A stretch of 57,768 nt of DNA from Betaproteobacteria bacterium (lineage in GTDB: Bacteria > Pseudomonadota > Gammaproteobacteria > Burkholderiales > Casimicrobiaceae), in contig JANMDS010000163.1 of the NCBI GenBank assembly GCA_031376405.1, positions 1 to 57,768 on the forward strand. The letters are read 5' to 3'. The notes beneath the pieces are model-generated. The model made no database searches, was not told the DNA's origin, and worked only from the letters and a program-made list of their open reading frames with translations. Within the stretch, counting starts at the first letter, position 1; every line of letters starts with the position of its first letter. This document shows positions 180-57,768 of the stretch, one piece after another. The position numbers and the translations under genes were made by a program.

Positions 180-211
180 TTTTGCGCAAGCGAAAAAAAT
201 CGTGATTTTCC

Positions 212-253
212 GGGGAGATAATATTCAAAAATGGCTGGCTTTGCGCCGCAGGT
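212..253 (-). repeat. Repeat unit (42-nt family), reverse orientation; a degenerate partner arm lies upstream (about 180-211)
   Basis: ggggagataatattcaaaaatggctggctttgcgccgcaggt. Confidence 0.8.
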
Positions 254-277
254 TTAGAGCGGTCTTACCGCTTACCT

Positions 278-9942: not shown

Positions 9943-9950
9943 GTTAATAA

Positions 9951-9992
9951 ACCTGCGGCGTAAAAACAGCGTTTTTTAGGATTTATCTACCC
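9951..9992 (+). repeat. Repeat unit, forward; its degenerate partner arm runs into the moeB 3' end
   Basis: acctgcggcgtaaaaacagcgttttttaggatttatctaccc. Confidence 0.8.
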
Positions 9993-10005
9993 AAAAACGC
10001 AACGT

Positions 10006-10767
10006 TTACCGCGTCCCACACACCGCGCATTTCGCATCCCGCGGAATACGAATTTCTTGAAACTCCATACTGAGCACATCAATGGTGAGCAAGCGCCCGG
10101 TGAGCGGCTGACCGACATTGGCAATTACTTTTAGCGCTTCTGCAGCTTGGATCGTACCGACGATACCGGTGACGGGCGCGAACACGCCCATCACGGCGCA
10201 ACGCACTTCGTCCGGCGCATCTCCTTCTGGGAAAAGGCAGTGGTAACACGGGCTTTTTTCATCGCGCGGATCGTACACGCACACTTGCCCGTCGAAACGA
10301 ATCCCCGCACCGGAGATCAATGGTTTTTTGTGTTCAAAGCAGGCGCGGTTGACGGCGTGGCGCGTTACGAAATTGTCGCAGCAATCGAGCACGATATCGG
10401 CCTCGCGCACGAGCGCGGCCAGTTCATCGCCCAACACTCTTTTCTGAATCGTGCGCACGTTCACCAGCGGGTTCATCTCACCGATTCGGTTTTTTGCGGA
10501 GGTTACTTTCGGTGTGCCCACGCCGCGCATATCATGGATGATTTGGCGCTGCAAATTCGTTAAATCTACCTCATCGTGGTCGCAAATCGTAATCGTGCCC
10601 ACGCCTGCCGCAGCGAGATAAAGCGCCACCGGTGAGCCTAAACCGCCCGCGCCGACGATAAGCGCGTGCGCGTTCACAAACGCGGTTTGGGCTTCTACGC
10701 CCAACTCGGGCAGAAGAATGTGTCGCGAGTAGCGCAGCAGGGCTTCGTCGGAGAGTTCGGGGTTCAT
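10006..10767 (-). CDS. moeB: Molybdopterin-synthase adenylyltransferase (HesA/MoeB/ThiF family)
   Basis: 253 aa. It has RYSRHILLPELGVEAQ, a GAGGLGSP nucleotide loop and two CxxC pairs (CYHC, CAVC). Confidence 0.85.
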   Translation of the reverse strand: MNPELSDEALLRYSRHILLPELGVEAQTAFVNAHALIVGAGGLGSPVALYLAAAGVGTITICDHDEVDLTNLQRQIIHDMRGVGTPKVTSAKNRIGEMNPLVNVRTIQKRVLGDELAALVREADIVLDCCDNFVTRHAVNRACFEHKKPLISGAGIRFDGQVCVYDPRDEKSPCYHCLFPEGDAPDEVRCAVMGVFAPVTGIVGTIQAAEALKVIANVGQPLTGRLLTIDVLSMEFQEIRIPRDAKCAVCGTR

Positions 10768-13299: not shown

Positions 13300-13373
13300 G
13301 CGGGTGTAGTTCAATGGCAGAACGGAAGCTTCCCAAGCTTCATACGAGGGTTCGATTCCCTTCACCCGCTCCA
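13300..13373 (+). tRNA. tRNA-Gly (anticodon CCC)
   Basis: Hand-folded cloverleaf: acceptor GCGGGTG/CACCCGC, D arm GTTC..GAAC, anticodon stem GAAGC/GCTTC with loop TTCCCAA, T arm GAGGG-TTCGATT-CCCTT, and an encoded CCA. Confidence 0.9.
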
Positions 13374-13388
13374 AAACCCCCATTTTTC

Positions 13389-13429
13389 GGGTGATAATCC
13401 TGAAAACGCACCTAAAATGCGCCGCAGGT
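13389..13429 (-). repeat. Repeat unit, reverse orientation, 16 nt downstream of tRNA-Gly
   Basis: gggtgataatcctgaaaacgcacctaaaatgcgccgcaggt. Confidence 0.75.
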
Positions 13430-13553
13430 ATTCCATGTAGGTGCACTTCTGCGCACCGTCGCACGCCTGCAACACTGCGCGCACGCCCTACGCCTCCGCC
13501 CGAACCAAACCCACGATATCGGCTCTAAACTGAGTATTGAAAGGCGGGTTTGC

Positions 13554-15165: not shown

Positions 15166-15419
15166 AGCGCGCCATTTCACACGATCTATTTAGTCAACTG
15201 CCAGCCCTCGCACGCGGACGTTATCGGCATTACAAGGGTAACGAATACGATGTGATTGAGCTCGCTCGACACAGCGAAACCCACGAGTGGATGGTGGTGT
15301 ACCGCCCGCGCTATGGCGAGCGCGGGTTGTGGGTGCGCCCGTATGCAATGTTTGTTGAAGCGGTAATGGTTGATGGCCAATCGGTGCCACGATTTGCGTT
15401 CGTAGCGAACGAAAAATAG
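15147..15419 (+). CDS. DUF1653 domain protein
   Basis: GRYRHYKGNEYDVIELARHSETHEWMVVYRPRYGERGLWVRPYAMF matches the DUF1653 signature. The tracked start is TTG and overlaps the upstream gene by 19 nt, so the start is uncertain. Confidence 0.6.
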   Translation: MPRSGLERAISHDLFSQLPALARGRYRHYKGNEYDVIELARHSETHEWMVVYRPRYGERGLWVRPYAMFVEAVMVDGQSVPRFAFVANEK

Positions 15420-15424
15420 CCAAT

Positions 15425-15464
15425 GCCTGCGGCGCAAAAAGTGCCACTTTTGCCGAATATCTCC
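15425..15464 (+). repeat. Repeat unit, forward
   Basis: gcctgcggcgcaaaaagtgccacttttgccgaatatctcc. Confidence 0.8.
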
Positions 15465-15500
15465 TGCAAAATAGCGAAAATTCACTCCGGAAACCACGCC

Positions 15501-25325: not shown

Positions 25326-27068
25326 CTAAGCATCCGCAGTTTTCGCCGGAGCGCTTCGAGTCAGCATATCCTTTACCGCAATGTACGCAAACACAATGCC
25401 CGGCCCGATGGTGATGCCGGGTGCGGGATAGGCCGAGCCCATCATGGAGCGCATATCATTGCCTGCGGCGTAGAGGCCGGGTATTAGTTGATGGTTGGCA
25501 TCGGTCACGCGTGCATGCTCGTCGGTCGCAAAGCCTGTGGCCGCACCGATGTCGCCGGGAAATAATTTCACCGCGTAAAACGGCGCTGTTGCCAATGCGC
25601 CCAAATTTGGGTTGAGATTGCCCGCCTTGGCATCGCCAATATTGCGCTGATAGTCGGTTTCGCCCCGATGAAAATCGGGGTCGAACCCGTGTGCGGCGTA
25701 GCGGTTCATTTGTTCGACGCTTTGCTGTAATTGAGGGCCATTTATTTGGAGATAATTGGCTAAATCGGTCAAATTTGCGCCGCAGGTAAGGTAGCCATCG
25801 GCAAGATAGGCACGTAGATTGCCCGCCCCTGGGCGCACCATACCCATGCCGTATTTCTTGAGCGCTACGGCATCGCAAATGAGGTAGGCGGGCACTGCGC
25901 CCTGCACTTGCATTGCTAATCCATAGCGGTGGTACGAGGTGCTTTCGTTTACAAAACGCTTACCTTCTTTATTCACGGTAATGAAGCCAGGCTTGGCTCT
26001 GTCCATCACAAAGTGTGGGAACGCAGCGGTGCTGCCATCTGCACGTTTTCGAATCGAAACGGGTGCCCAAAATGCGTGGCTTCCGCCAGCGTGTGCGTAC
26101 ACCGCGCCGATCTCTTCGGCCAGCGTGTGGGCCGCACCCGTGTGGCCCGGTGCGGCGGGGCACCATGCGCTATCAATGCCAAGCAGCATTGCTGCGCGCT
26201 TTTCAGGGTGACGATTAAACCCACCGCTCGCGAGCACAACACCGCAGCGCACTTTGACCGTTTTTTCGTAGCCGTTTTGAACAAGCGTTATCGCATGCAC
26301 ACCGCGCGCATCCTGATGCAGTTTGCTCGGCGCGGTGTTCACGCAAAGCGCCGCGCTTTCGTGCTGTGCCAGAGAATACAAAAGCCGCGCAACGTGGGCA
26401 TTTCCCATGACCAGCCGCGTACCGCGCGGGTTGCTCAGCCGATCCCGTGCATGCCGGGCCACGATTTTCAAACAATGGCTAAATGATTTCACCGAGCCAA
26501 ACATACTGAGCAAATGCGTGATGTCTTCTCGATTGACCATCATGCCGCCCAACACCGTGAACTCTGGTATCGGTGGCCGAATGAGGGCGAATAAGCGCCC
26601 TAGCTTTCGGCCATCGAAGGGCAACGGATCGAGCGCGCGCCCACGCAAGGTTGCGCCCGCTTGGTTTGATTCGTAGTCGGGGTGCAGCGCAAACGGGCGA
26701 TACTTCACCTCACTCTTAGTTTCGATTTGTGCCAGCGCGGCGGCGCACTCTGTGATGAAGGCTTGCCGCATCTCCTCTGCGCTTTGCGCACCAACGGTGG
26801 CATTGAGGTAGGTTTGCACTTGCGCAGCCGAGTCCTCAACGCCCACTTCGTTTGCATGCGTCGAAAGCGGAATCCATGCCGTCCCTGCGGATAGCGCGGT
26901 TGTGCCGCCCACGAAAGGCGTGCTTTCAACAACCAACACGCGTAAGCCTTCGAGCGCGGCAAACACGGCCGCTGCGAGGCCAGCACCGCCCGCGCCGAGC
27001 ACCACAACATCGTAAGTATCGGGAAGCTGTTCAAGCGTTGCGGGGATTGTGGCGGCGTGGGGCATCAC
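25326..27068 (-). CDS. FAD-dependent oxidoreductase (paralogue of 22676-24352)
   Basis: 580 aa. It has YDVVVLGAGGAGLAAA and GLYAAGND motifs and starts 9 nt after the stop of the S41 peptidase gene on the same strand. Confidence 0.75.
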   Translation of the reverse strand: MMPHAATIPATLEQLPDTYDVVVLGAGGAGLAAAVFAALEGLRVLVVESTPFVGGTTALSAGTAWIPLSTHANEVGVEDSAAQVQTYLNATVGAQSAEEMRQAFITECAAALAQIETKSEVKYRPFALHPDYESNQAGATLRGRALDPLPFDGRKLGRLFALIRPPIPEFTVLGGMMVNREDITHLLSMFGSVKSFSHCLKIVARHARDRLSNPRGTRLVMGNAHVARLLYSLAQHESAALCVNTAPSKLHQDARGVHAITLVQNGYEKTVKVRCGVVLASGGFNRHPEKRAAMLLGIDSAWCPAAPGHTGAAHTLAEEIGAVYAHAGGSHAFWAPVSIRKRADGSTAAFPHFVMDRAKPGFITVNKEGKRFVNESTSYHRYGLAMQVQGAVPAYLICDAVALKKYGMGMVRPGAGNLRAYLADGYLTCGANLTDLANYLQINGPQLQQSVEQMNRYAAHGFDPDFHRGETDYQRNIGDAKAGNLNPNLGALATAPFYAVKLFPGDIGAATGFATDEHARVTDANHQLIPGLYAAGNDMRSMMGSAYPAPGITIGPGIVFAYIAVKDMLTRSAPAKTADA

Positions 27069-29091: not shown

Positions 29092-30698
29092 GAGGCAGAT
29101 TTCATCTGGGAATACCGGGGCCGTAAATCGAACACTTGGATTACAGCATCCTCCATGATGGGTGGCCCAAAACGCATCGTTAAATTGGATGCGCACGCAG
29201 CCAAATCGGGCATGGGCACACCGGGCATGCGGCGCGGATGGTGGATGGGCTTTCGCAGCACCACGAGATCGATGTGTTTTGCGCGCAAATCGTCGTCGTT
29301 GGCGAGGTACGCAAAGTTGCGCAAGGCAAGTCCTTTGCCGGGCAAAGGGTGTCCTCCGTCCCACGTGGTGCACAAGCCTTCCCCGCTCGCGGGGATGAGC
29401 TTTTGCCGAGCGATCCGCTGCCAAAGCGGATGCTCGGCATCAAAAGAGTAGAGCGACCACGGCGCTGCCGCGATGGTGACGTTCCCGTTTTTTTCGGGAA
29501 CTAGCGCTTGCCACAGCGGTGAAATCGGAACCACGCTCATGTGCTCGCGGATTGGATTTTTGTGGCGGCGCATATCGAAATGAAACCAGCTGTGGCTCGC
29601 GTATTGTTGTGGCGCGCGCAATATTTCCTGCATCGGCGTGGTCACAATCGTCGCGGCGACGAGACTGGCTGTGAGCGCGGTTGTCGCCGCGTTTGCGTGC
29701 GACTTTTCAGAAAGTCGAACAATACCTGCGGCGCAAAACAGCAGCAAAACAGGAATTATCGGCAGCAAATAGCGGGCAAACGTGAGCGGTTGCTGGACCC
29801 ACGCTGGGCGCATGAGCAAAATGGCTGCGCAGGTGAGTGCCAAACCCAACGCATACACCTGCGCAAACGGGCCGCCCGCCCGCCACACGCGCGGCGCGCC
29901 ATAGCACGCGAGCCCAAGCATCACCACGAGAATAACGTGCGAGCCCACGCCTAACCACTGGTGCGCCGCACCCCATAGTGTGGTGAGCGTGGGTAGGTCC
30001 GTTGCAGCTTTTTCTGCCAGCGCGTTGGGGTTCATGAAAAAAGGAGGACCAACGACCAACACCAACGCCACCCCACTTGCAACCGCCAGCGCAAACCAAG
30101 GCAGTGCGTGAAGCCGCGTGCGCCACAGGTTCCACAATCCGTAAACCTGGGGCGCGAACACCATCGGGGCTACGATTAAGTGCAGCCACGTCGCCAACAC
30201 CGCCACAAAAACATAGGCCACTGCAAGCGCAGCGCTTCGCCGATCCCACCATTTCAAATACAGCCAGATGGCGAGCGGCACGAGCGCAACGGTAAGCCCG
30301 TAGGGGCGGGCAATGCGCGCGTAGGTGAATAGCAAGGGCGACGTGGCCAGCAACGCACCAAACGCCAAGGCCGTATTCGCGCCCAGGCGCTTCCAAGCAA
30401 AGCCCGTTGCCACGCCTGCAAAGAGTAAACCCGCGATGAATAACGGCGCACGCATGGCCAGTTCACTCAGGCCCATCGTAGCGGCAATTGCCTTGTAGTA
30501 AAGCGTAAGCGGGATGCTGTAGTCCGCCAAACCGAACGAGGTGGCGATTTGCGTAGGGGTGCTCATCATCACCTGGTGCGCGGCGTGCCACTCGTCATCA
30601 ATCAATACTTGATCGATAAGTTGATAGCCTCTATAAAAAAACGCGAGAAGTACGATGAGCGTGATACCGAGCCCGCGTGCGCGATTGTTATTTGCCAA
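29088..30698 (-). CDS. Polytopic GT-C-like membrane glycosyltransferase (ArnT/PMT family 39-like)
   Basis: It has more than 10 hydrophobic helices and a first-loop acidic motif (LIDDEWH). The proposed start is TTG at 30698, preceded by GGGAAG at 7-nt spacing, and it overlaps the mnmE stop by 11 nt. The start is uncertain; the next ATG is at 30569. Confidence 0.6.
29724..29760 (+). repeat. Diverged repeat unit inside the GT-C membrane protein gene
   Basis: acctgcggcgcaaaacagcagcaaaacaggaattatc. The outer 16 nt and the inner TTATC are conserved, and the T-run is replaced. Confidence 0.55.
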
Positions 30699-32070
30699 TG
30701 CAGAACTTCCCAAATATTTCACCCAGCAGATCGTCGGCGGTAAATTCACCCACAATTTCGCCCAGCGCGTGGTGGGCGAGCCGCAGCTCCTCTGCGAAAA
30801 GCTCGAGCGCGGGGAACGCGAGCTGCCCGAGCGCGGCTTCAATATGAACCCGTGCGCGTTTGAGTGCTTCAACGTGCCGCGCCCGGGCAGTGAACGTACC
30901 CTCGTGCGCGCTCGCGTAGCCTACGCTTTCGGTAATGCGGGCAATCAGCGCATCAATGCCCGCGCCCGTGAGCGCGGAGACGAACACTTCATCGGTTCGC
31001 GCAGCGGGCATTTCCACAAGCTGATCGGATTTGTTGCAAACATAAATATGGGGAACGTCCGCGGGCATGCGGGCCAAAACCTGCGGCGCAATTTCGGCAC
31101 TTTTCGAGGAATATCTCCCCAAAAAAGGTGCTTTCGAAGCCTCAGCTAAGATGAGCACTACGCTCGCCCGCTCCACCGCTTGCAAGGTGCGCTCGATGCC
31201 GATACGTTCCACGGCATCGGCGGTTTCGCGAATGCCTGCGGTGTCGATGATTTCGCAAGGCAAACCATTGAGCGCGATGCGTGCCCGGACAGTATCGCGC
31301 GTAGTGCCTGCGATGGGCGTAACGATCGCTACTTCCTCACCGGCCAGCCGATTTAACAGCGAGCTCTTGCCCACGTTCGGTGCGCCTACCAACACCACGC
31401 GAATGCCATCGTGAAGCAATTGCCCCTGCTGGGCTTGCTGGAGCACTGCTTCGAGCGCTGCACGCACATCCATCGCCTGCCCACGCGCGTTTTCCGCTTG
31501 AATAAATTCCACGCCTTCTTCTTCCGGAAAATCCAGCGTGGCCTCTGTAAACATGCGCAGGCGAATGAGCTTTTCTTGCAGCGTTTTGATATGCGCAGAA
31601 AAAGCGCCCGTCAGCGCGTTCATTGCCGCTCGGGCGGCTGCTTTGGAGCCCGCATCAATTACATCGGCTACAGCCTCGGCTTGGGCTAAATCTAGCTTGC
31701 CATTGAGAAACGCACGCTGGGTAAATTCCCCCGGATTTGCCATGCGCGTATTCCCACTTACATCCGCGGCGATACAGGCTTCAACGAGCACGTGCAACAA
31801 CAGCGGGCTGCCGTGCCCTTGCAGCTCTAACGTGTCTTCGCCGGTGTACGAATGCGGCGCTGGGAACCACAATGCCAGGCCTTCGTCGAGCGTTTCGTGT
31901 TGCGGGTTTTTGAAGTTGACGAAGGTGGCTACACGCGGCGCAAGTATTTTGTGTGTGAGTGCGAGCGCGATGCTTGCCGCACTCGCACCACTCAACCGTA
32001 CAACGCCCACGCCGCCTCGACCGGGGGGCGTGGCGATGGCGACAATAGTAGAGGGTGAAGCGCTTGGCAT
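30688..32070 (-). CDS. mnmE: tRNA uridine-5-carboxymethylaminomethyl modification GTPase MnmE
   Basis: 460 aa. It has [21 protein letters not shown] at the N-terminus, a G domain ([20 protein letters not shown]) and the C-terminal CIGK tetrapeptide. Confidence 0.93.
31079..31140 (+). repeat. Repeat unit plus part of the partner arm inside the mnmE coding sequence
   Basis: acctgcggcgcaatttcggcacttttcgaggaatatctccccaaaaaaggtgctttcgaagc. It aligns along ~60 nt with the intergenic copy at 24359-24418. Confidence 0.8.
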
Positions 32071-32106
32071 TGCGCTAGTTTATGCGGCGCACCAATTTGA
32101 GCCAAA

Positions 32107-32147
32107 ATCTGCGGCGTAAAAAGTGCCCTTTTTAGAATTTATCTCCC
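32107..32147 (+). repeat. Repeat unit, forward, overlapping the stop codon of the GST gene 32139-32765
   Basis: atctgcggcgtaaaaagtgccctttttagaatttatctccc. Confidence 0.8.
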
Positions 32148-32765
32148 ACGATTAAACGCACACCATGCCTTTACTGCCGGATGCGCCCATTGCCGTTTCA
32201 CGTAAATAGCTAGGCGTGCGGGCACGCTACCACCACTGTTCGTAATGCGCAACAACATGAGCGCGAGATCGGTATCGGCGATAGACCACGCGCCGAATAG
32301 GTTGTCTGCACCTTGCGGCAACAGCGCTTCGGCGAAGGCGATCAATTTGTCCGCCGCAGCCTGCGCATCGGACGAAAGTGGCGCAGTGGCGGGCGCGAAG
32401 AAAATAGTCTCGGTTGAGCGCTCGCTGCGCAACGCGGCCATGTCCGTGCGCACAAAGCCTTGCACTTGCCGGGCACGGGCGCGGGCGTGAATGTTTTCTG
32501 GAAGCACCCGTTTCGTATCGGGAAATTGTTCCTCCAAATATTCACAAATAGCGGTGGATTCGGAAAGTGAAAAATCGCCGTGCACAAGCGTGGGAATTCG
32601 GTGCGTGAGCGATTGCTTTACGAACGCCGGTGCGTGCTGCGCGCCCGTATTTAAATCTACGGTGAGCAGTTCAAAAGGGAGTTGTTTTTCTTTCAGTATC
32701 ACGTACACCGCCAACGCCCAGGGGCTCGCGTATTGGGCATCAACGTAGAGAGTCAAGCTGCTCAT
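32139..32765 (-). CDS. Glutathione S-transferase (YfcF-like)
   Basis: 208 aa. It has LYVDAQYASPWALAVYVILKEKQLPF.. and IPTLVHGDFSLSESTAICEYLEE. Confidence 0.75.
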   Translation of the reverse strand: MSSLTLYVDAQYASPWALAVYVILKEKQLPFELLTVDLNTGAQHAPAFVKQSLTHRIPTLVHGDFSLSESTAICEYLEEQFPDTKRVLPENIHARARARQVQGFVRTDMAALRSERSTETIFFAPATAPLSSDAQAAADKLIAFAEALLPQGADNLFGAWSIADTDLALMLLRITNSGGSVPARLAIYVKRQWAHPAVKAWCAFNRGR

Positions 32766-34960: not shown

Positions 34961-36022
34961 ATGTTTAATCTATTCCGTCGCAAACCCGTTCCCCCTTCAG
35001 CCCCCGAGTCCGAAATTATCGCTACACCCGACGGTCCGGCGTTGGTAGAACCTGAAAACGTGCTCACACCTGCGGCGCAAAATGAAGCGGTCGTGCAGGT
35101 TATCTCCGAAAAAACGAGCTGGTTGAACAAGCTGAAATCGGGCTTATCGAATACGCGCGAAAAATTGGGCGGTGGTTTCGCCAAAATTTTTGCTAATAAA
35201 AAATTAGACGAAGAAACGCTCGAAACGCTCGAAACCACGCTGCTCTTGGCCGACGTAGGCGTAACCGCGACTTCACATTTGATTGCCGATTTACGCCGCC
35301 GCTACAAAGCCCAAGGCGGCGAGGCGGGCGCGCAAGCCCCGAGAGAATTGCTCTCCGAGGCGATGACTGATTTGCTCACGCCGCTTGAAGGCCCGCTAAC
35401 GGTTGCCGACGCGAAGCCATACGTAATTATGGTGGCTGGCGTAAATGGCGCGGGTAAAACCACCACCATTGGCAAGCTCGCGAAACACTTTCAAACGAGC
35501 GGCTACAGCGTGCTCCTGGCCGCAGGCGACACTTTTCGCGCCGCCGCCCGCGAGCAACTCGTGGCCTGGGGGGATCGCAACAACGTGCAAGTCATCCAGC
35601 AGCAAGGGGGTGATCCGGCAGCAGTGATGTTCGATGCCGTGCAAGCAGCCAAGGCACGGGGCATTGATGTGGTCATAGCGGACACCGCAGGCCGCCTACC
35701 CACGCAGCTGCATTTGATGGAGGAAATTAAAAAAGCTAAGCGCGTACTGGCAAAAGCGGATGCTTCGTATCCCCATGAAACGCTTTTGGTGCTCGATGGG
35801 AACACCGGTCAAAACGCCGTCGCGCAAGTCAAAGCCTTCGATGATGCGCTGCAGCTCACCGGTTTGGTGATGACCAAGCTCGACGGCTCAGCCAAAGGCG
35901 GCGTGCTTTGCGCCATCGCCAAAGAGCGTCCTGTGCCACTCAAGTTCATCGGTGTCGGCGAAGGTATTGAAGACTTGCAGCCGTTTGTTGCGCGGGAGTT
36001 TGTTGAGGCCTTGGTGGGGTAG
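34961..36022 (+). CDS. ftsY: Signal recognition particle receptor FtsY
   Basis: 353 aa with a short acidic N-region followed by an NG domain (GVNGAGKTTTIGKLA, DTAGR, TKLDG..KGG). Confidence 0.93.
   Translation: MFNLFRRKPVPPSAPESEIIATPDGPALVEPENVLTPAAQNEAVVQVISEKTSWLNKLKSGLSNTREKLGGGFAKIFANKKLDEETLETLETTLLLADVGVTATSHLIADLRRRYKAQGGEAGAQAPRELLSEAMTDLLTPLEGPLTVADAKPYVIMVAGVNGAGKTTTIGKLAKHFQTSGYSVLLAAGDTFRAAAREQLVAWGDRNNVQVIQQQGGDPAAVMFDAVQAAKARGIDVVIADTAGRLPTQLHLMEEIKKAKRVLAKADASYPHETLLVLDGNTGQNAVAQVKAFDDALQLTGLVMTKLDGSAKGGVLCAIAKERPVPLKFIGVGEGIEDLQPFVAREFVEALVG
35068..35114 (+). repeat. Repeat unit inside the ftsY coding sequence (N-terminal variable region)
   Basis: acctgcggcgcaaaatgaagcggtcgtgcaggttatctccgaaaaaa. 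The outer end and the inner TTATCTCC...AAAA are conserved. Confidence 0.65.
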
Positions 36023-37755: not shown

Positions 37756-39018
37756 TCATTTTGTGAAGTGACTCACGCAGTCAGATTCATCGAAGATCGC
37801 GATAAGGGTGCGAGCTGTGGCGCCTTGGTTGGTGCGGGCAAATTGCTGCGCTGCAATAGCTTGTGTTTCACGCAGCGCATTGTTTTGGAGCAGGTAAACG
37901 AGGGCGCCCAGCGCGGCCTCGGCGGACGCTACCTGCGTGACCGCGCCCGCAGCGATGCCCGCTTTGGCAGCGGCCTCAAAGTTAAACGTGGACGGCCCGA
38001 TCACAACTGGCACACCCATCGCGCAAGGCTCGATTAAATTTTGACTCCCCGTGGAGAACGAGCCCCCTATAAACGCGACTTGTGCGCAGGCGTAGTAGGC
38101 AAACATTTCGCCCATCGTGTCGCCAACAATCACCTCTGCATCTGAAGCAATTTTTTCGTTTGCACTTCGGCGCGCAACACGAAACCCCATGCTTTGGGCG
38201 AGCGCCACGACTTCATCAAAACGCCGAGGATGCCGGGGCACGATGAGCGCGCGGGCGGCGCGGCGAAGTGGGTGTGCACGCAGCGCGTTGAGCAGAAGCG
38301 CTTCATCGCCTTCGCGCGTAGAGCCCGCGATCCAGAGCGGTGCCATGCCAAATAGCGCGCGTAACGCATGCGCCTTCTCGGCCCAATCATTCGGTGGCGT
38401 TACGTCAAATTTCATATTGCCCAATACCGCTACGTTACCCGCGCCAAGCGAGGTAAAGCGGGCCGCATCTGCATCGGCGGCAGCGAGTACCTCGCGTAAA
38501 CGATTGAGCGTGGCACGGGTAAGTGTTGGGAATTTCGCATAGCCGCGGGCGCTTTTTTCTGACAAACGCGCGTTCACCAACCATACCGGGATCTCGCGCT
38601 GTGCGCATTGGGCAATCACCTCGGGCCACAGCTCGGTTTCCATTACAACGCTACGCGCGGGGCGTGTCGCGTTCAAAAATCTTATTACGCATGGTGCGAA
38701 ATCGTAGGGCAAATAGCACTGGGTAACGCTTTCGCCAAAAAGCTGCGCGCCCGTTGCGCGGCCGGTGGGCGTCATGTGTGTGAGTAAAATTTTCATCTGC
38801 GCGTTTCGTGAATGCAGCGCTTTGAGAAGCGGGTCCGCAGCACGGGTTTCGCCCACGCTCACCGCATGAATCCACACATCAAATGGGCCTCGCGGCAACC
38901 CAAAACCAAAGCGCTCGCGCCAATGCGCCCGATACGTTGGATCTATTGCGCCGCGCCACAAAAGACGCAACGCTGCAAGCGGCAGCGCGAGCAACCAGAG
39001 CGCGCGATAGCTTGTCAC
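37756..39018 (-). CDS. waaA: 3-deoxy-D-manno-octulosonic acid (Kdo) transferase
   Basis: 420 aa. It has an N-terminal anchor, WIHAVSVGE and SFxxxGGQNxxEP-like (GGSFSTGSQNLIEP) motifs. There is a 4-nt overlap with waaC. Confidence 0.88.
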   Translation of the reverse strand: MTSYRALWLLALPLAALRLLWRGAIDPTYRAHWRERFGFGLPRGPFDVWIHAVSVGETRAADPLLKALHSRNAQMKILLTHMTPTGRATGAQLFGESVTQCYLPYDFAPCVIRFLNATRPARSVVMETELWPEVIAQCAQREIPVWLVNARLSEKSARGYAKFPTLTRATLNRLREVLAAADADAARFTSLGAGNVAVLGNMKFDVTPPNDWAEKAHALRALFGMAPLWIAGSTREGDEALLLNALRAHPLRRAARALIVPRHPRRFDEVVALAQSMGFRVARRSANEKIASDAEVIVGDTMGEMFAYYACAQVAFIGGSFSTGSQNLIEPCAMGVPVVIGPSTFNFEAAAKAGIAAGAVTQVASAEAALGALVYLLQNNALRETQAIAAQQFARTNQGATARTLIAIFDESDCVSHFTK

Positions 39019-39971
39019 GGCGCGCTATTTGTTAAATGGGGCGACATCGCGCGTAAAACTTCATCCACGCTCGGCGGCCGCCCGATGCCGCCCAAGTTCA
39101 CCGCGCCCGCCTCGCCGCCCCACGCCCCCGATAAGCCCGGATCAGTGGCCACATACACGCCCACCACCGGCACGCCCACCGCCGCCGCGAGATGAAGCAA
39201 ACCCGTGTCTACACCCACCACGCAGGCTGCTGCGCTCAAATCATTGGCGAGCTGGGCGAAGGGGTCACGCGGCCACACGCGGGCATGGGCGAAGCCCGCG
39301 GCAAGCCGCTGTGCGCGGGCCTCTTCAGCGGGCGAGCCCCAGGGTAGGCCCACTTCGTAACCCTTTTCGCCGCACGCCGCGATCAGCGCGCGCCAGTTCG
39401 CTTCCGGCCACAATTTATCGTCACGCGACGTTGCGTGGCAACAGACCACAAGCCGCATTTTCTGGGAGATAAGTTGCAAACCATAGCTGTTTTGCGCCGC
39501 AGGTATTTTGTAGTGCAACGCCGCTGCAAGCAGCGCGCGGTTGCGCGTTACCGCGTGTTCCGCTTTGCTCACCGCAAATTTATGTTGATACGACATACTC
39601 GCCAACGGCTCGCGCGCGCTCGCCCAATCGTAGCCGCTGCGCGGCCCGCGCGCCCGGGAAGCCAACCATGCGCTTTTCGCCAAGCCTTGCAAATCCACAA
39701 TCGCATCGTAAGGCGTTTCGCGCACCTCGTTCTTGAACTTCGCAAACGCAGCTCGCACCGGCTGCGAAAACGGCGCTTTGCGCCACTTACGCAGCTCGCA
39801 CACAATCACCCGATCAATAGCCGGATGCAACCGCGCAATCCCCGCAAAACCCGCCTCCACCAACCAATCAACCTGCGTGTCCGGTTGCGCCCGCTTCAAA
39901 TCAGCAAGCGCCGGAAAGGCGTGGATCACATCGCCCATCGACGAGGTTTTAACAATCAAAATGCGTGGCAT
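39015..39971 (-). CDS. waaC: ADP-heptose:LPS heptosyltransferase I (GT9)
   Basis: 318 aa. It has MPRILIVKTSSMGDVIHAFPAL, HATSRDDKLWPE and VGVDTGLLHLAAA. Confidence 0.85.
   Translation of the reverse strand: MPRILIVKTSSMGDVIHAFPALADLKRAQPDTQVDWLVEAGFAGIARLHPAIDRVIVCELRKWRKAPFSQPVRAAFAKFKNEVRETPYDAIVDLQGLAKSAWLASRARGPRSGYDWASAREPLASMSYQHKFAVSKAEHAVTRNRALLAAALHYKIPAAQNSYGLQLISQKMRLVVCCHATSRDDKLWPEANWRALIAACGEKGYEVGLPWGSPAEEARAQRLAAGFAHARVWPRDPFAQLANDLSAAACVVGVDTGLLHLAAAVGVPVVGVYVATDPGLSGAWGGEAGAVNLGGIGRPPSVDEVLRAMSPHLTNSAP
39464..39504 (-). repeat. Repeat unit inside the waaC coding sequence
   Basis: gggagataagttgcaaaccatagctgttttgcgccgcaggt. Confidence 0.8.
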
Positions 39972-40004
39972 GGACGCATTATGCGGGGTTCACGGCACAG
40001 AGAA

Positions 40005-40072
40005 ACCTGCGGCATAGAAATGGAATTTTTTGGGAGATATCCCCTGAGAATGGCCGTTTTTGCGCCGCAGGT
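40005..40072. repeat. Complete head-to-head repeat pair (~68-nt palindrome)
   Basis: acctgcggcatagaaatggaattttttgggagatatcccctgagaatggccgtttttgcgccgcaggt. Confidence 0.9.
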
Positions 40073-40140
40073 TTTTTGATGAAAAGACAAACCTGTAGCC
40101 TGTATTAGCCGCAACGCGGCGTAATCCGGGAGCGATTCGG

Positions 40141-40185
40141 GTCAAATCAAAATTCAAACTGAGGGTGGGCACGGGGTGCCACCCT
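40141..40185 (+). repeat. Direct repeat A flanking the higBA cassette
   Basis: GTCAAATCAAAATTCAAACTGAGGGTGGGCACGGGGTGCCACCCT. It matches 40963-41007 at roughly 37 of 45 positions by eye. Confidence 0.6.
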
Positions 40186-40242
40186 ACGTCTATTCCGTGC
40201 GACTATGCTTATAGTCCGCACCTTATAAGGTACACTAATGTG

Positions 40243-40596
40243 ATGAAACCTCAACATAAACTGCCCGCAACGTTCTACCGTAGCGCCTCGGGCAGAGAGC
40301 CCGTGAGAGAGTGGTTACAGTCGCTTGCGCCTGATGAGCGAAAGCAGATTGGGGAAGATATTGCTTACGTGCAATACAAATGGCCCATCGGCAAGCCGCG
40401 CGTGGACCATTTGCGCGCTGGCGTTTGGGAAATCCGCTCGACTTTGGGCACGCGCATTGCACGCACGCTATTCGCGGTGGTTGACGCTGAAATTATTTTG
40501 TTGCATTGATTCATCAAGAAAACCCAGCAAACCCCAGCAAAAGAAATTGATACTGCCGCATCGCGGCTGAAGGAATGGAATCATGGCCAAAACTAA
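40243..40596 (+). pseudogene. higB: HigB/Gp49-like (RelE/ParE superfamily) toxin gene interrupted by an in-frame TGA at 40507-40509
   Basis: The ORF ends ...DAEIILLH*. The same frame continues FIKKTQQTPAKEIDTAASRLKEWNHGQN*, which is the conserved LH[C/G]F.KKTQKTP..EI..A..R tail of this family. The restored frame overlaps higA by 14 nt. Confidence 0.75.
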
Positions 40597-40894
40597 TCCC
40601 CATCGCGGCACGAGTTTCGATGATTTTTTGAAAGAAGAAAAACTCTACGACGAAGCCAATGCGAAAGCGCTCAAGCGCGCTATTTCAGAGCACTTACTCG
40701 ATCAAATGCAGGCAGCGCAGATGACCAAATCTTCGATGGCGCAGCGCATGGCAACCAGTCGCTCACAGCTTGATCGCGTGCTCGACCCGAGCAACACTTC
40801 CGTGCAGCTCGACACGCTTTTGCGCGCGGCTCGCGCGCTCGGCCGTGAGGTGGAGATTCGATTCAAAAAAGCGCCGCGCTCGCAAGCAACTTGA
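40583..40894 (+). CDS. higA: HigA-like XRE-family HTH antitoxin
   Basis: 103 aa. It has NPHRGTSFDDFLKEEKLYDE.. followed by an HTH (MTKSSMAQRMATSRSQLDRVLDPSNTSVQLDTLLRAARALG). Confidence 0.8.
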   Translation: MAKTNPHRGTSFDDFLKEEKLYDEANAKALKRAISEHLLDQMQAAQMTKSSMAQRMATSRSQLDRVLDPSNTSVQLDTLLRAARALGREVEIRFKKAPRSQAT

Positions 40895-40911
40895 TTTGAT
40901 TGCGCTCTTGT

Positions 40912-40921
40912 ACCTGCGGCG
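40912..40921 (+). repeat. Isolated outer-end fragment of the repeat unit downstream of higA
   Basis: Only acctgcggcg is present. A similar split fragment (acctg..gcggcgtaa) lies at 40091-40123, upstream of higB. Confidence 0.4.
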
Positions 40922-40962
40922 CTGATTGGGCAGGCACTCAGTCCGTACGATGGGCAGACTCT

Positions 40963-41007
40963 GTCAAATTGAAATTCAAACAGAGACGTGGGGACGGGGT
41001 GGGTACC
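40963..41007 (+). repeat. Direct repeat B flanking the higBA cassette
   Basis: GTCAAATTGAAATTCAAACAGAGACGTGGGGACGGGGTGGGTACC. A partial third copy, TTCAAATGAGAGTTCAAAC, follows at 41011-41029. Confidence 0.6.
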
Positions 41008-41034
41008 ATCTTCAAATGAGAGTTCAAACAAATG

Positions 41035-41598: not shown

Positions 41599-41654
41599 AA
41601 ACGCAAAAACCTAAAGTAAGTGCACAGAAACTCGCCTACACACTTCACCAAAAT

Positions 41655-41721
41655 ACCTGCGGCGCAGAATTGACAATTTCTCAGAGAATTCTCCAAAAAC
41701 CGACCATTCTGCTCCCCAGGT
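41655..41721. repeat. Head-to-head repeat pair with a diverged right arm
   Basis: acctgcggcgcagaattgacaatttctcagagaattctccaaaaaccgaccattctgctccccaggt. Confidence 0.7.
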
Positions 41722-41737
41722 ATTACGCGCTTTTTAA

Positions 41738-42706
41738 CTACTCTTTCTCAATCTTCGCCTGCTTAGTCAACTGCGCCCAGCGTTTAGATTCGCTGTCGAT
41801 CAGTTTCGCTAAACCTGCTGCGTCGGTGGAGTCGATATCAATGCCGGCGTTGCTTAATTTCGTTTTCACGTCCGCTTTTTGCAGTACGGTTTGCAGCATG
41901 GTGGTGAGTTTGGCTTGCACTTCTTTCGGCACGTTCGCTGGGGCCATGAGCGCGAACCACGCGACGAGTTCGTAGCCGGGGAGGGCTTCGGAGATGGCGG
42001 GCACGTCGGCGATTTGGCTGGCGCGTTTGGCGGAGGTAACGCCGAAGGCTTTTACTTTGCCGCCTTTCATTTGGGCCATGGCGTTGCCCAAATCAGCGAA
42101 TACGATTTGCAGGTTTCCCCCTAACAAATCAGTAATCGCGGGCGGGATGCCTTTGTAGGGCACCATCAAAATATCTGTTTCCGACATGGAGCCAAAGAGC
42201 GAGCCGCTCACCCACGAGCCGGAGGAGCCTTGGCCGAAGGCGAGCTTACCAGGGTTGGCTTTGGCGTTGGCAATTAGGCCTTTCAAATCGTTGGCGGGGA
42301 AGTTGGCGTTGGTGATGAGAACGAACGGGGTGGTGCCGATTTTGCCAATCGGGGTGAAATCTTTTACGGGATCGTAGGGCACGGTTTTTAGCAAGCTCGT
42401 AACGGCGGCTTGCGTGGTGCTCGTGGTGACCAATAAAGTGTAGCCATCGCCTGCAGCGTCCTTTACGTCTTTTGCGCCGATGGTGCCTTGCGCGCCCGCT
42501 TTGTTTTCTACGGTGATGGGCTGGCCGAGGGCTTCGCTCATGGCTTGGCCTACGATGCGGCCTACGGCGTCCGTGGCGCTGCCTGCGGGGAAGGGCACGA
42601 CAAAGCGCAAGGGTTTGGCAGGGTAGGTTTGCGCTTGGACAATCGCACTAAAAAAGGCCAATATTGCGCCGCAGGTATTTACGTACATTTGAGTCGAGCG
42701 TTTCAT
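41738..42706 (-). CDS. Bug/TctC-family tripartite tricarboxylate transporter substrate-binding protein
   Basis: 322 aa. It has a signal peptide, then YPAKPLRFVVPFPAGSATDAVGRIV, and VPYKG and GGKVKAF motifs typical of Bug proteins. Confidence 0.85.
   Translation of the reverse strand: MKRSTQMYVNTCGAILAFFSAIVQAQTYPAKPLRFVVPFPAGSATDAVGRIVGQAMSEALGQPITVENKAGAQGTIGAKDVKDAAGDGYTLLVTTSTTQAAVTSLLKTVPYDPVKDFTPIGKIGTTPFVLITNANFPANDLKGLIANAKANPGKLAFGQGSSGSWVSGSLFGSMSETDILMVPYKGIPPAITDLLGGNLQIVFADLGNAMAQMKGGKVKAFGVTSAKRASQIADVPAISEALPGYELVAWFALMAPANVPKEVQAKLTTMLQTVLQKADVKTKLSNAGIDIDSTDAAGLAKLIDSESKRWAQLTKQAKIEKE
42648..42676 (-). repeat. Outer half of a repeat unit inside the signal-peptide codons of the TctC-like gene
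   Basis: ctaaaaaaggccaatattgcgccgcaggt. On the minus strand it encodes ..NTCGAILAFFS.. Confidence 0.55.
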
Positions 42707-56277: not shown

Positions 56278-56287
56278 TTCTCAAAAT

Positions 56288-56355
56288 ACCTGCGGCGCAA
56301 AACCCGCATTTTTTGGGAGATATCATCCAGAAACTGTCTTTTTTACGCCGCAGGT
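56288..56355. repeat. Complete head-to-head repeat pair
   Basis: acctgcggcgcaaaacccgcattttttgggagatatcatccagaaactgtcttttttacgccgcaggt. Confidence 0.9.
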
Positions 56356-56373
56356 ATTGGGCGCAAAACGCGC

Positions 56374-57712: not shown

Positions 57713-57729
57713 ATAAATAAACCCTCGAT

Positions 57730-57768
57730 ACCTGCGGCGCAAAAAGGCCGTTTTTTAGGAGATATCTC
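57730..57768 (+). repeat. Repeat unit, forward, cut by the window end
   Basis: acctgcggcgcaaaaaggccgttttttaggagatatctc. Confidence 0.85.

What the first reader, a model, noticed from the sequence alone, without database searches (positions are those of the whole stretch)
39464..39504. Repeat unit embedded in waaC (heptosyltransferase I) and translated as ..KIPAAQNSYGLQLISQKM..
The plus-strand sequence gggagataagttgcaaaccatagctgttttgcgccgcaggt is a typical unit. It lies inside the 318-aa waaC ORF, just upstream of the conserved HATSRDDKLWPE block. I infer this region is the variable linker between the two Rossmann-like halves of GT9 enzymes. The gene length is normal and the frame is open. The ftsY copy is read in the same orientation and frame.
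Basis: partly seen in the sequence, partly recalled or inferred. Interest (0 to 1): 0.62.

Follow-up and report, generated by a model that had tools for sequence, protein, structure and literature searches.

The report
Uptake-signal-like repeat written into waaC
A real copy of a very abundant, lineage-specific DNA motif sits inside an intact LPS heptosyltransferase gene; it was not inserted but arose in place by rewriting the enzyme's least-conserved linker, which is how DNA uptake sequences of naturally transformable bacteria behave.

Summary
Window 39464-39504 is a genuine member of a repeat family. The family has about 26 copies in 57.8 kb, built as GGAGATA-N23-CGCCGCAGGT with phased A/T tracts. 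The copy lies inside an intact 318-aa waaC on the minus strand. It covers the coil between the two GT9 domains, which is the least conserved stretch of the protein. The ftsY copy is read in the same orientation and frame (PAAQN...IS.K).

It is not an inserted element. Orthologues have the same length there, give or take one codon, and WaaC from taxa without the repeat keeps the Y..P...[D/N]YGL scaffold. The 15-nt core sits at the same codons in relatives of 63-68% identity. The GGAGATA block and one extra codon, which sets the invariant 30-nt spacing, appear only in the closest clade. Synonymous sites in the segment are unusually conserved (0.86-0.89 against about 0.60).

In a more distant relative the motif is only a 19-mer (AAATCTGCGCCGCAGGTAT). 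It occurs at about 0.8 per kb, half the copies are in coding sequence, and they fall into a few reading-frame classes.

My best reading is a DNA-uptake-sequence-like motif (about 0.45), here grown into an unusual bipartite 45-nt form. Competence is untested. The rivals are a selected protein-binding site and a REP-like repeat.

The parts
39015..39971 (-). waaC (ADP-heptose:LPS heptosyltransferase I, GT9), 318 aa, intact
   Evidence: phmmer against PDB WaaC 2gt1/2h1h/6dfe gives E 3e-80. Pfam PF01075 in all homologues. AF2 model pLDDT 93.
39443..39512 (+). Repeat unit inside waaC. It lies antisense to the gene, so the mRNA carries ACCUGCGGCGCAAAAC...UUAUCUCCC. It encodes codons 154-177, YKIPAAQNSYGLQLISQKMRLVVC.
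   Evidence: nhmmer 41.6 bits, E 3.6e-12, with a profile that did not include this copy. Exact bipartite match.
39465..39471 (+). GGAGATA block of the waaC unit (codons L-I-S on the gene strand)
   Evidence: It lies exactly 30 nt upstream of the core, as in all 23 copies measured.
39490..39507 (+). Core TTTTGCGCCGCAGGTATT of the waaC unit (codons K-I-P-A-A-Q-N on the gene strand)
   Evidence: The same core is at the same codons in L002 and L008 waaC (63-68% identity).
39486..39488 (-). Clade-specific extra codon AGC (Ser162), which brings the block-to-core spacing to the canonical 30 nt
   Evidence: Absent from all 14 more distant WaaC sequences in alignment A1. Spacing.
34961..36022 (+). ftsY, 353 aa
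   Evidence: Pfam SRP54 and SRP54_N. PDB FtsY E 9e-97.
35068..35122 (-). Repeat unit inside ftsY, in the variable N-terminal A region. Same orientation and frame as the waaC copy (TPAAQNEAVVQVISEK).
   Evidence: nhmmer 25.7 bits. Exact bipartite match. PAAQN/PAAQI is present only in the 86-88% relatives.
30688..32070 (-). mnmE, 460 aa
   Evidence: Pfam TrmE_N, MnmE_helical and MMR_HSR1. PDB 9hip E 4e-132.
31071..31141 (-). Full-scoring repeat unit inside mnmE, read in the opposite orientation ([18 protein letters not shown]). There are 8 extra codons compared with the 83%-identical relatives.
   Evidence: nhmmer 58.3 bits. Alignment A2. Codon comparison.
25735..25788 (+). Repeat unit inside an FAD_binding_2 gene (25326-27068, -), read in a third frame (TCGANLTDLANYLQ)
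   Evidence: nhmmer 25.0 bits. Exact bipartite match. Pfam.
29719..29739 (-). Core-only copy inside a PMT_2-like membrane protein gene (LLFCAAGIV)
   Evidence: The orthologous core is in L079 at 12308-12331.
40003..40081 (.). Palindromic double unit (two cores head to head around GGGAGATATCCCC), immediately upstream of waaC
   Evidence: RNA fold z -5.2.
41649..41729 (.). Degenerate palindromic double next to the 3' end of the TctC gene
56279..56364 (.). Palindromic double between two convergent genes
57726..57768 (.). Palindromic double, cut by the window end
190..262 (+). Intergenic unit
   Evidence: 56.5 bits
3698..3769 (+). Intergenic unit
   Evidence: 60.8 bits
5943..6010 (-). Intergenic unit
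   Evidence: 60.5 bits
7270..7344 (-). Intergenic unit
   Evidence: 55.2 bits
9398..9459 (+). Intergenic unit whose T-tract is also the tail of a GC-rich terminator-like hairpin
   Evidence: 51.4 bits. Fold.
9945..10013 (-). Intergenic unit
   Evidence: 56.0 bits
10860..10929 (+). Intergenic unit (hairpin-forming)
   Evidence: 57.6 bits. z -6.6.
13367..13438 (+). Intergenic unit abutting a tRNA gene (13300-13370)
   Evidence: 45.1 bits. tRNA.
15416..15485 (-). Intergenic or gene-start unit
   Evidence: 46.4 bits
16979..17046 (+). Intergenic unit
   Evidence: 50.6 bits
24350..24416 (-). Intergenic unit. A unit sits at the orthologous position in L079 (15897-15935).
   Evidence: 58.7 bits..
32098..32159 (-). 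Intergenic unit
   Evidence: 48.8 bits
36030..36096 (-). Intergenic unit between ftsY and cytochrome c. A unit follows the cytochrome c gene in L001, L004 and L002 as well.
   Evidence: 60.5 bits..
42648..42682 (+). Half unit (A-tract plus core) at the start of the TctC gene
   Evidence: 24.8 bits
43624..43679 (+). Intergenic unit flanking the restriction-modification island
   Evidence: 48.8 bits
46629..46700 (+). Intergenic unit flanking the restriction-modification island
   Evidence: 63.1 bits
54943..55010 (+). Intergenic unit upstream of the atp operon
   Evidence: 54.6 bits

Best explanation
What is shown (confidence about 0.9). The waaC segment is a true coding-region copy of a hyper-abundant, lineage-specific DNA motif. 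It was produced in place rather than by insertion. The core (ATACCTGCGGCGCAAAA on the gene strand, read I-P-A-A-Q-N) already occupied these codons in relatives of 63-68% identity. In the closest clade, the neighbouring linker codons were then substituted until they spelled the second block (CTT ATC TCC, which is GGAGATA on the other strand). One codon (AGC) was added, and this gives exactly the family's invariant 30-nt spacing. The conserved residues Y-G-L were kept under the variable part of the unit. The protein tolerates this because the unit lies in the interdomain coil, its least constrained stretch. The DNA itself is held constant at synonymous sites in three lineages, and it has decayed by synonymous changes in a fourth.

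What is inferred (confidence about 0.45). The force that writes and keeps the motif is that of a DNA uptake sequence. On this reading, competent cells of the lineage preferentially take up DNA that carries the motif. Any mutation that improves a match is then over-transmitted by transformation and homologous recombination (molecular drive). Copies accumulate wherever the protein or the intergenic sequence allows.

In a more distant relative the signal is a plain 19-mer, AAATCTGCGCCGCAGGTAT. In this lineage it has lengthened, through core plus phased A/T tracts (L079), to a bipartite signal of about 45 nt. That form would suggest a receptor or DNA bending that contacts two sites about three helical turns apart.
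For: 1. Real family member: 41.6 bits, E 3.6e-12, from a profile built without this copy. The bipartite pattern occurs 22 times against 0.01 expected.

2. No insertion: the codon alignment of 8 waaC orthologues shows equal length apart from one codon. The core is at identical codons in L002 and L008 and absent in L007 and L009. S162 is absent from 14 other WaaC sequences. E. coli WaaC is 6 aa longer there.

3. DNA-level constraint: identical-codon fraction at conserved residues is 0.86-0.89 in the segment against 0.58-0.62 in the rest of the gene for the win/L004/L001 pairs, in the top 1-4% of sliding windows. In L006 the copy is broken, mostly by synonymous changes.

4. Uptake-sequence-like statistics:
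- The 10-mer core occurs at 0.43 per kb in the window and 0.66-0.81 per kb in L001, L002 and L081. It is absent from L007 and L009, and occurs at 0.009 per kb in 1.14 Mb from 69 other betaproteobacterial loci.
- There is no strand bias.
- In GCA_031430575.1 the information is confined to about 19 nt, and 16 of 31 copies are in genes. These fall into a few frame classes: PAAQ 8, APQV 3, CAAG 3, TCGA 2. waaC and ftsY belong to the PAAQ class.
- Coding copies replace aligned residues without indels, for example mnmE GNCAAGIA.

5. Dialects: short core (L002, L081, L008), core plus A/T tracts (L079), and the full bipartite unit (window, L001, L004, L080).

6. Copies are kept at orthologous sites across genomes even where neighbouring genes differ.

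7. Published uptake sequences behave the same way. They sit at poorly conserved residues, 34-65% are in ORFs, they show reading-frame bias (PMC2817400), and they arise by recombination in permissive regions (PMC2397512).

8. Rigid geometry: the block-to-core distance is exactly 30 nt in 23 of 23 copies, including all four coding copies. This fits recognition of the DNA itself. It does not fit a decaying mobile element.
Against: - No competence, type IV pilus, ComEA, ComEC or DprA gene is visible in the window or the fetched flanks, and the rest of the genome could not be examined. A TfoX_C-domain gene near waaC in L001 and L006 is only a hint.
- Nothing shows that DNA with the motif is taken up.
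- No known uptake sequence is 45 nt long and bipartite with a second conserved block.
- In this window only 7 of 29 cores are in coding sequence although 89% of the window is coding. Long operons (atp, the ABC transporter) have none. The distribution therefore also looks like operon-boundary punctuation.
- The short-dialect core contains an 11-bp palindrome (CTGCG-C-CGCAG), which is more typical of a dimeric DNA-binding protein site.
- mnmE gained 8 codons together with the unit, so not every copy is free of indels.
Confidence: 0.5

Rival explanations
1. The unit is a cis-acting site for a chromosomal DNA-binding protein, such as a nucleoid-structuring, gyrase/IHF-type or operon-boundary factor, and is kept by ordinary selection at each locus. 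It would have nothing to do with DNA uptake. The waaC copy would be one more selected site that happens to fit into a tolerant linker.
For: - Two sequence blocks at an invariant 30-nt distance, with phased A/T tracts.
- Strong intergenic preference: 22 of 29 cores lie in the 11% of the window that is non-coding.
- Copies sit at most operon boundaries and are absent from the atp and ABC operons.
- Positions are conserved between genomes.
- The core contains a palindrome, and the double units have a palindromic centre, GGAGATATCTCC.
Against: - In the relative with the short dialect, half of the copies are in coding sequence, in a few frame classes, at about 0.8 per kb. That is unusual for a regulatory or architectural site.
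- Building a roughly 20-position match inside waaC by point substitutions, plus a spacing-correcting codon, is easier with a drive acting on every partial improvement.
- No candidate binding protein is encoded nearby.
- Promoter-like and terminator-like sites are not enriched.
Confidence: 0.25
2. The family is a REP/REPIN-like selfish repeat, spread by a RAYT-type enzyme or by gene conversion between copies. On this reading the single units are decayed halves of the palindromic doubles, and the waaC copy was pasted in by ectopic conversion seeded on a pre-existing core.
For: - Palindromic doubles of about 70 nt with complementary 'variable' arms exist beside singles that look like doubles lacking one core.
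- In mnmE, 24 extra nucleotides create the missing left arm of a palindrome. That looks like template switching or conversion.
- Most copies are extragenic and sit at gene 3' ends.
Against: - The variable part of the waaC unit encodes the conserved Y-G-L and differs from every other copy. The best pairwise match is 76-78%, so nothing was pasted in.
- No length gain in waaC.
- No RAYT or Y1 transposase in the window.
- REPs are extragenic, whereas the short dialect is 52% coding.
- Most singles, including the waaC copy, have no significant hairpin.
- There are no indels at all in the 30-nt spacer of 23 copies.
Confidence: 0.12
3. A small mobile element inserted in frame into waaC, as Rickettsia palindromic elements do in rickettsial genes, and is now translated as extra peptide.
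For: Part of the unit is read as peptide in waaC, ftsY and mnmE. mnmE is 8 codons longer than in the 83% relatives.
Against: - waaC is not longer than orthologues that lack the unit. It has +1 codon against a unit of about 60-70 nt, and E. coli is 6 aa longer there.
- The residues under the unit align to ancestral residues (Y154 is invariant; P157, Y163, G164 and L165 are conserved).
- The core predates the rest of the unit.
- No terminal repeats or target duplications are present.
Confidence: 0.03
4. The match is a chance resemblance or a metagenome assembly artefact at a repeat.
For: The window is a metagenome contig.
Against: - E 3.6e-12.
- An exact bipartite match against 0.01 expected.
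- The same unit is at the same codons in three independent assemblies: L001, L004 and L005.
- The ORF is colinear with orthologues on both sides.
Confidence: 0.01

Closest known systems
Pasteurellaceae uptake signal sequences (USS; Hin-type AAAGTGCGGT plus two phased AT-rich tracts)
   Same: - Density near 0.4-0.8 per kb, with both orientations used equally.
- Found in genes as well as between them, with a few preferred reading frames.
- Located at poorly conserved residues and created in place without indels.
- The core is followed by helically phased A/T tracts.
- Sub-clade 'dialects' exist.
(PMC2817400.)
   Different: - Unrelated sequence and an unrelated host (an uncultured Burkholderiales-type betaproteobacterium).
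- The unit here has a second conserved block, GGAGATA, at a rigid 30 nt, giving about 45 nt in total.
- Only about 24% of the window's cores are in coding sequence.
- Uptake has never been tested.
Neisseriaceae DNA uptake sequences (DUS, 12-mer AT-GCCGTCTGAA, and its dialects)
   Same: - Betaproteobacterial host.
- Biased to intergenic regions.
- Often found as inverted pairs after genes.
- Family-level dialects.
- Arise through recombination in permissive regions (PMC2397512).
- Variable gene cassettes between conserved flanks resemble neisserial 'minimal mobile elements' (from my own knowledge).
   Different: - Different sequence.
- The inverted pairs here have a fixed distance and a conserved palindromic centre.
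- No ComP-like receptor has been identified.
Rickettsia palindromic elements (RPE) inserted in frame in protein genes
   Same: Repeat DNA that is translated as part of housekeeping proteins, located in surface or linker regions.
   Different: RPEs add 30-50 residues by insertion. The waaC unit adds one codon and overlies ancestral residues.
REP / REPIN elements with RAYT transposases
   Same: Abundant units of 35-70 nt, singles and inverted doublets, mostly at gene 3' ends.
   Different: - REPs are extragenic hairpins tied to a RAYT gene.
- Here coding copies exist and many singles do not fold.
- The spacer never carries indels.
- No RAYT was seen.
Cyanobacterial highly iterated palindrome HIP1 (GCGATCGC)
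   Same: A short, partly palindromic motif that is enormously over-represented in both coding and non-coding DNA of one lineage, with no mobile-element features.
   Different: HIP1 is 8 nt and fully palindromic, and it has no extended architecture. Its cause is itself unresolved (from my own knowledge).

Membership tests
DNA uptake sequences (USS/DUS) | DNA carrying the motif is preferentially taken up or transformed by competent cells of the species | not testable with these tools
   Uncultured organism from a freshwater-sediment metagenome.
DNA uptake sequences (USS/DUS) | Hundreds to thousands of copies, about one per kb, far above chance and lineage-specific | tested here: met
   0.43-0.81 cores per kb in the window, L001, L002 and L081, against 0.009 per kb in 1.14 Mb of other Betaproteobacteria. 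27 observed against 0.46 expected. Only sampled regions were examined, not whole genomes.
DNA uptake sequences (USS/DUS) | Both orientations equally frequent, with no replication-strand skew | tested here: met
   About 11 + and 11 - in the window. Beside dnaA in L081 the counts are 5 + and 7 -. The sample is small.
DNA uptake sequences (USS/DUS) | Copies in coding regions arise in place at poorly conserved residues, without indels, in preferred reading frames | tested here: met
   waaC codon alignment. The segment is the least conserved window of the protein. Frame classes are PAAQ, APQV, CAAG and TCGA. One exception: mnmE gained 8 codons.
DNA uptake sequences (USS/DUS) | The host encodes the competence machinery (type IV pilus with secretin, ComEA, ComEC/Rec2, DprA) and a motif receptor | not tested
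   None of these lies in the 57.8-kb window or in about 150 kb of relatives' flanks. There is only a TfoX_C-domain gene in L001 and L006.
DNA uptake sequences (USS/DUS) | Related lineages carry diverged versions (dialects) of one core | tested here: met
   AAATCTGCGCCGCAGGTAT (L002, L081). TTTGCGCCGCAGGTAT (L008). A/T tracts plus core (L079). The bipartite unit (window, L001, L004).
In-frame inserted palindromic elements (RPE-type) / MITEs | The host gene is longer than empty-site orthologues by the element's length | tested here: not met
   +1 codon only, and the same length as orthologues of 62-68% identity that lack the unit.
In-frame inserted palindromic elements (RPE-type) / MITEs | Terminal inverted repeats and/or target-site duplication at the borders | tested here: not met
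   None at the waaC unit. Single units have only one core.
REP / REPIN | Extragenic location only | tested here: not met
   7 of 29 cores in the window and 16 of 31 in L002 plus L081 are inside genes.
REP / REPIN | Each REP is an imperfect palindrome that folds into a hairpin | tested here: inconclusive
   Doubles and some singles fold (z -3 to -6.6). Many singles, including waaC (z +1.8), do not.
REP / REPIN | An associated RAYT (Y1 transposase) gene in the genome | tested here: inconclusive
   No Y1_Tnp hit among the 40 window proteins scanned. The rest of the genome is unseen.
GT9 heptosyltransferase I (WaaC), the host gene | Full-length similarity to solved WaaC, two Rossmann-like domains, and the conserved family residues present | tested here: met
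   E 3e-80 to 2gt1/2h1h. AF2 pLDDT 93 with two alpha/beta domains. All 57 invariant columns of alignment A1 are kept.

The most novel reading that the evidence does not exclude
An uncultured freshwater Burkholderiales-type lineage has a third, independently evolved DNA-uptake-sequence system, outside Neisseriaceae and Pasteurellaceae. Its evolution can be followed step by step across relatives. It starts as a 19-nt core used freely in coding sequence. It then gains phased A/T tracts. It ends as a bipartite signal of about 45 nt (GGAGATA-N23-CGCCGCAGGT) with invariant spacing, implying a receptor or bend that reads two sites three helical turns apart. The lengthened signal is strong enough to overwrite enzyme linkers (waaC, mnmE, ftsY) and even to fix spacing-correcting codon insertions.
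Probability: 0.35. Interest if true: 0.8.

Novelty: new variant of a known kind. Interest (0 to 1): 0.6.

Why it matters
As far as I know and as far as my literature searches show, sequence-specific DNA uptake signals are established in only two bacterial families. Their origin is still debated: molecular drive against selection.

This lineage offers a natural series of dialects in which the signal lengthens. It also offers coding copies, with waaC the clearest, in which the order of events can be read codon by codon. The core came first. The second block and a spacing-correcting codon came later. One branch then shows synonymous decay. That makes the question of how such motifs are written into genes directly testable.

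If the motif turns out not to be an uptake signal, it is still notable. It would be a bipartite, rigidly spaced genomic signal of unknown reader that sits at most operon boundaries and is strong enough to shape protein sequences.

For annotation, the practical message is that the waaC, ftsY and mnmE copies are not insertions or pseudogenising events. These genes are intact.

Tried and rejected
- Rfam at gathering thresholds found only a tRNA and the anti-hemB sRNA. No family covers the repeat.
- RNA or terminator role: folding of 23 copies shows no general hairpin, and the waaC copy has z +1.8. Terminator-like and sigma-70-like sites in 30-48 kb are no more frequent than in shuffles.
- Transposase or RAYT search: Pfam scans of 40 window proteins gave none.
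- Organism identification: the genome-contig scan with WaaC returned no relative above 49% identity, and cluster look-ups gave no names. The nearest named MnmE and FtsY hits are Casimicrobium or Casimicrobiaceae and 'Burkholderiales bacterium' MAGs, at 57-59% (MnmE) and 64-71% (FtsY) identity.
- The metagenome-contig scan for the bipartite pattern gave a single hit, so no larger sample of the family could be gathered.
- The viral-contig scan for the 18-mer core gave 4 single hits, about what chance gives.
- A literature search for the core string found only unrelated primers. Searches for uptake sequences in other Betaproteobacteria found nothing relevant.
- No RNA-seq run holds the locus, so transcript ends could not be examined.
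- Apparent avoidance of GGAGATA outside units was dropped, because only 1.7 chance copies are expected.
- The ftsY copy could not be used to separate insertion from in-place origin, because the FtsY A region is full of indels.
Full report
**The observation**

They belong to a repeat family that fills the window.

The 15-mer TTTTGCGCCGCAGGT occurs 27 times with at most 2 mismatches, against 0.46 expected. The bipartite pattern GGAGATA-N23-CGCCGCAGG occurs 22 times with at most 1 mismatch, against 0.01 expected, and the waaC copy matches it exactly.

I built an nhmmer profile from 19 intergenic copies and left the waaC copy out. It matches 39443-39512 over nearly its whole length at 41.6 bits, E 3.6e-12. 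Intergenic copies score 45-63 bits.

**The host gene**

The copy lies in ORF 39015-39971 on the minus strand, 318 aa. This ORF matches the solved E. coli WaaC structures at E 3e-80. It keeps every invariant column of an 18-sequence alignment.

The unit is antisense to the gene and is translated as YKIPAAQNSYGLQLISQKMRLVVC (codons 154-177). It comes directly before HATSRDDKLWPE.

An AlphaFold2 model (pLDDT 93.1) shows residues 153-173 as coil between helix 140-152 and strand 174-178. That places the segment in the connection between the two Rossmann-like domains. It is the least conserved 21-residue window of the protein.

ftsY is 34961-36022, with SRP54 and SRP54_N domains. It carries a copy at 35068-35122 in the same orientation and frame (TPAAQNEAVVQVISEK). 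This copy is in the variable A region upstream of the N domain.

**Anatomy of the family**

Anchoring all copies on the core gives this consensus:

TTTTT..GGAGATAa.....AAAAA..gcc..TTTT[G/A]CGCCGCAGGT.TT

- The distance from GGAGATA to the core is exactly 30 nt in 23 of 23 copies, including the four coding copies.
- All 17 assessable GGAGATA heptamers in the window are followed by a core at +30.
- Some copies are head-to-head doubles of about 70 nt around GGAGATATCTCC: 40003-40081, 56279-64, 57726-end and 41649-729.
- Orientation is unbiased, with about 11 copies on each strand.
- Many single units, including the waaC copy, have no significant secondary structure.
- Terminator-like and promoter-like sites are not enriched.
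- Rfam has no family for the unit.
- No transposase is present.

**Inserted or made in place?**

WaaC homologues form a graded series: 90, 86 and 85% (metagenomes), then 68, 65, 63 and 62%. I fetched their DNA and aligned codons.

| Source (WaaC identity to the window) | State of the site in waaC |
|---|---|
| Window, L004 (86%), L001 (85%) | Whole unit at the same codons |
| L006 (90%) | Same peptide (PAAQNSYGLQLSSQK), but core and block broken, mostly by synonymous changes |
| L002 (68%), L008 (63%) | Only the core, ATACCTGCGGCGCA(A/G)AAT, at the same codons (PAAQN) |
| L009 (65%), L007 (62%) | Nothing (PERRS, PLGQN) |

All of these have the same length here. The only exception is one extra codon, AGC (Ser162), in the clade that has the full unit. 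That residue is absent from all 14 more distant WaaC sequences examined.

Without that codon the GGAGATA block would lie 27 nt from the core. With it the distance is the canonical 30 nt.

The variable middle of the unit encodes the conserved Y-G-L. E. coli WaaC, which has no repeat, reads GYSKPQTQGDYAI there and is 6 residues longer.

An element of 60-70 nt was therefore not inserted. The ancestral linker was rewritten, core first and extension later.

At residues that are identical between the win, L004 and L001 pairs, codons are identical in 0.86-0.89 of cases inside the segment. The figure is 0.58-0.62 elsewhere in the gene, which puts the segment in the top 1-4% of sliding windows. The DNA is thus constrained beyond the protein. 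In L006 this excess is gone.

**Other coding copies**

mnmE (30688-32070) contains a full-scoring unit (58.3 bits), read in the other orientation as [18 protein letters not shown].

The core (GCG CCG CAG GTT, read APQV) is already present in the 83% relatives, which also have a weaker unit with correct spacing. The window and its 90% relative have 8 extra codons that create the left arm of a palindrome. Small indels can therefore accompany extension of the unit.

An FAD-binding gene (25735-25788) and a PMT_2-like gene (29719-29739) carry copies in other frames.

**The wider family**

| Source | 10-mer CGCCGCAGGT per kb |
|---|---|
| Window | 0.43 |
| L001 | 0.67 |
| L002 | 0.81 |
| L081 | 0.66 |
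| L008 | 0.39 |
| L007, L009 | 0 |
| 69 other betaproteobacterial loci (1.14 Mb) | 0.009 |

In the 68-72% relative (GCA_031430575.1; L002 and L081) all information is confined to aAAtCTGCGCCGCAGGTAT, with no GGAGATA block and no tracts. There, 16 of 31 copies are inside genes. They fall into four frame classes: PAAQ 8, APQV 3, CAAG 3 and TCGA 2. The waaC and ftsY peptides belong to the commonest class.

L079 (83% MnmE) has core plus A/T tracts but no GGAGATA. L001, L004 and the window have the full unit. The motif therefore has dialects, and it appears to have lengthened along this lineage.

Copies are retained at orthologous places, for example after the cytochrome c gene and before the AP-endonuclease gene, even where the neighbouring genes differ.

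**Interpretation**

The family has the following features:

- High, lineage-specific density.
- No strand bias.
- Sharp motif boundaries in the short dialect.
- Free use in coding sequence in a few frames.
- Placement at poorly conserved residues.
- In-place origin.
- Dialects between relatives.
- Inverted pairs after genes.
- Helically phased A/T tracts.

These are the signature of the DNA uptake sequences of Pasteurellaceae and Neisseriaceae (PMC2817400; PMC2397512). I therefore favour a DNA-uptake-sequence-like motif spread by biased uptake plus recombination.

I rate this at only about 0.45, for four reasons:

- No competence gene could be examined.
- No known uptake signal is bipartite over 45 nt.
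- In this window the copies are strongly intergenic (22 of 29 cores) and are missing from long operons.
- The short core contains an 11-bp palindrome.

A selected protein-binding or operon-boundary site is the main rival (0.25). A REP/REPIN-like repeat is less likely (0.12), given the coding copies, the indel-free spacer, and singles that do not fold. An RPE-like in-frame insertion is excluded for waaC. Chance and misassembly are excluded by the statistics and by three independent assemblies that carry the same unit.

**Origin of the sequence**

The window comes from a freshwater sediment metagenome. The nearest named relatives of MnmE and FtsY are Casimicrobium or Casimicrobiaceae and 'Burkholderiales bacterium' MAGs, at 57-59% (MnmE) and 64-71% (FtsY) identity. 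A Burkholderia-type sRNA (anti-hemB) is present. A scan of species-representative genomes found no WaaC above 49% identity.

**Verdict**

- The linker inference is confirmed.
- The reading of the unit as embedded foreign DNA is replaced by in-place writing of a genomic signal into a tolerant linker.
- Novelty: a new variant of a known kind (uptake-sequence-like), with an unusual bipartite architecture.
- Interest: 0.6.

Noticed in passing
window 31071-31141 (mnmE 30688-32070, -); L080 1256-1327; L079 10920-10974: mnmE carries a full-strength unit. Compared with the 83%-identical relatives, which already have the core (APQV) and a weaker unit, the window and its 90% relative have 8 extra codons. 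These create the missing left arm of a palindrome (AAAGCACCTTTTTTGGGGA opposite TCCTCGAAAAGTGCC). This looks like template switching or quasipalindrome completion.
   Followed up: partly
window 40003-41729, compared with L001 9018-10000 and L006 3252-4771: The space between the TctC gene and waaC holds different cargo in each genome. The window has a Gp49/HigB-like plus HTH toxin-antitoxin pair (40165-40894) and a low-GC3 ORF (41035-41598). L001 has an acetyltransferase. L006 has a PLD/NgoFVII-like nuclease. In the window the cargo is bounded by palindromic double units, which resembles cassette exchange between conserved flanks.
   Followed up: partly
window 43624-46700: A low-GC3 restriction-modification island lies between two repeat units (43624-43679 and 46629-46700). 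It holds a C-5 cytosine methylase (44190-45266) and a SacI-like endonuclease (45312-46475). Relatives have other genes at this place (DUF5343, TfoX_C, Ada and others in L001).
   Followed up: partly
L001 3402-4118; L006 564-1211: A gene with a TfoX_C domain lies a few kb from waaC in two close relatives. TfoX/Sxy proteins regulate competence in other bacteria. It is not present in the window.
   Followed up: no
L001 9042-9367: A tandem array of four units of about 108 nt, each ending in the short-dialect core AAACTGCGCCGCAGGTATCGCC, lies between the TctC and acetyltransferase genes.
   Followed up: no
window 37530-37605 (-): Rfam match to anti-hemB (Burkholderia RNA 7, RF02837) at 57 bits, above the gathering score, between the engB-like GTPase gene and waaA.
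   Followed up: no
window 13300-13438: A tRNA gene (13300-13370, +) is directly abutted by a repeat unit (13367-13438).
   Followed up: no
window 9385-9459: In this copy the unit's T-tract doubles as the U-tail of a GC-rich hairpin (CCCCGGCTACCCGGGG-T8) after gene 7466-9364. Some units are therefore fused to intrinsic-terminator-like structures, although most are not.
   Followed up: partly
window 22676-24352 and 25326-27068, compared with L079 13693-16059: Two FAD_binding_2 oxidoreductase genes present in the window are absent from the syntenic stretch of L079. The repeat unit next to the AP-endonuclease-family gene is kept in both.
   Followed up: no
window 30688-32070, compared with L079 and L081: In the relatives mnmE sits in the usual origin-region block, yidC-rnpA-rpmH-dnaA-dnaN-gyrB. 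In the window it is followed instead by a GST gene, a LysR regulator, upp and ftsY, so the region has been rearranged.
   Followed up: no
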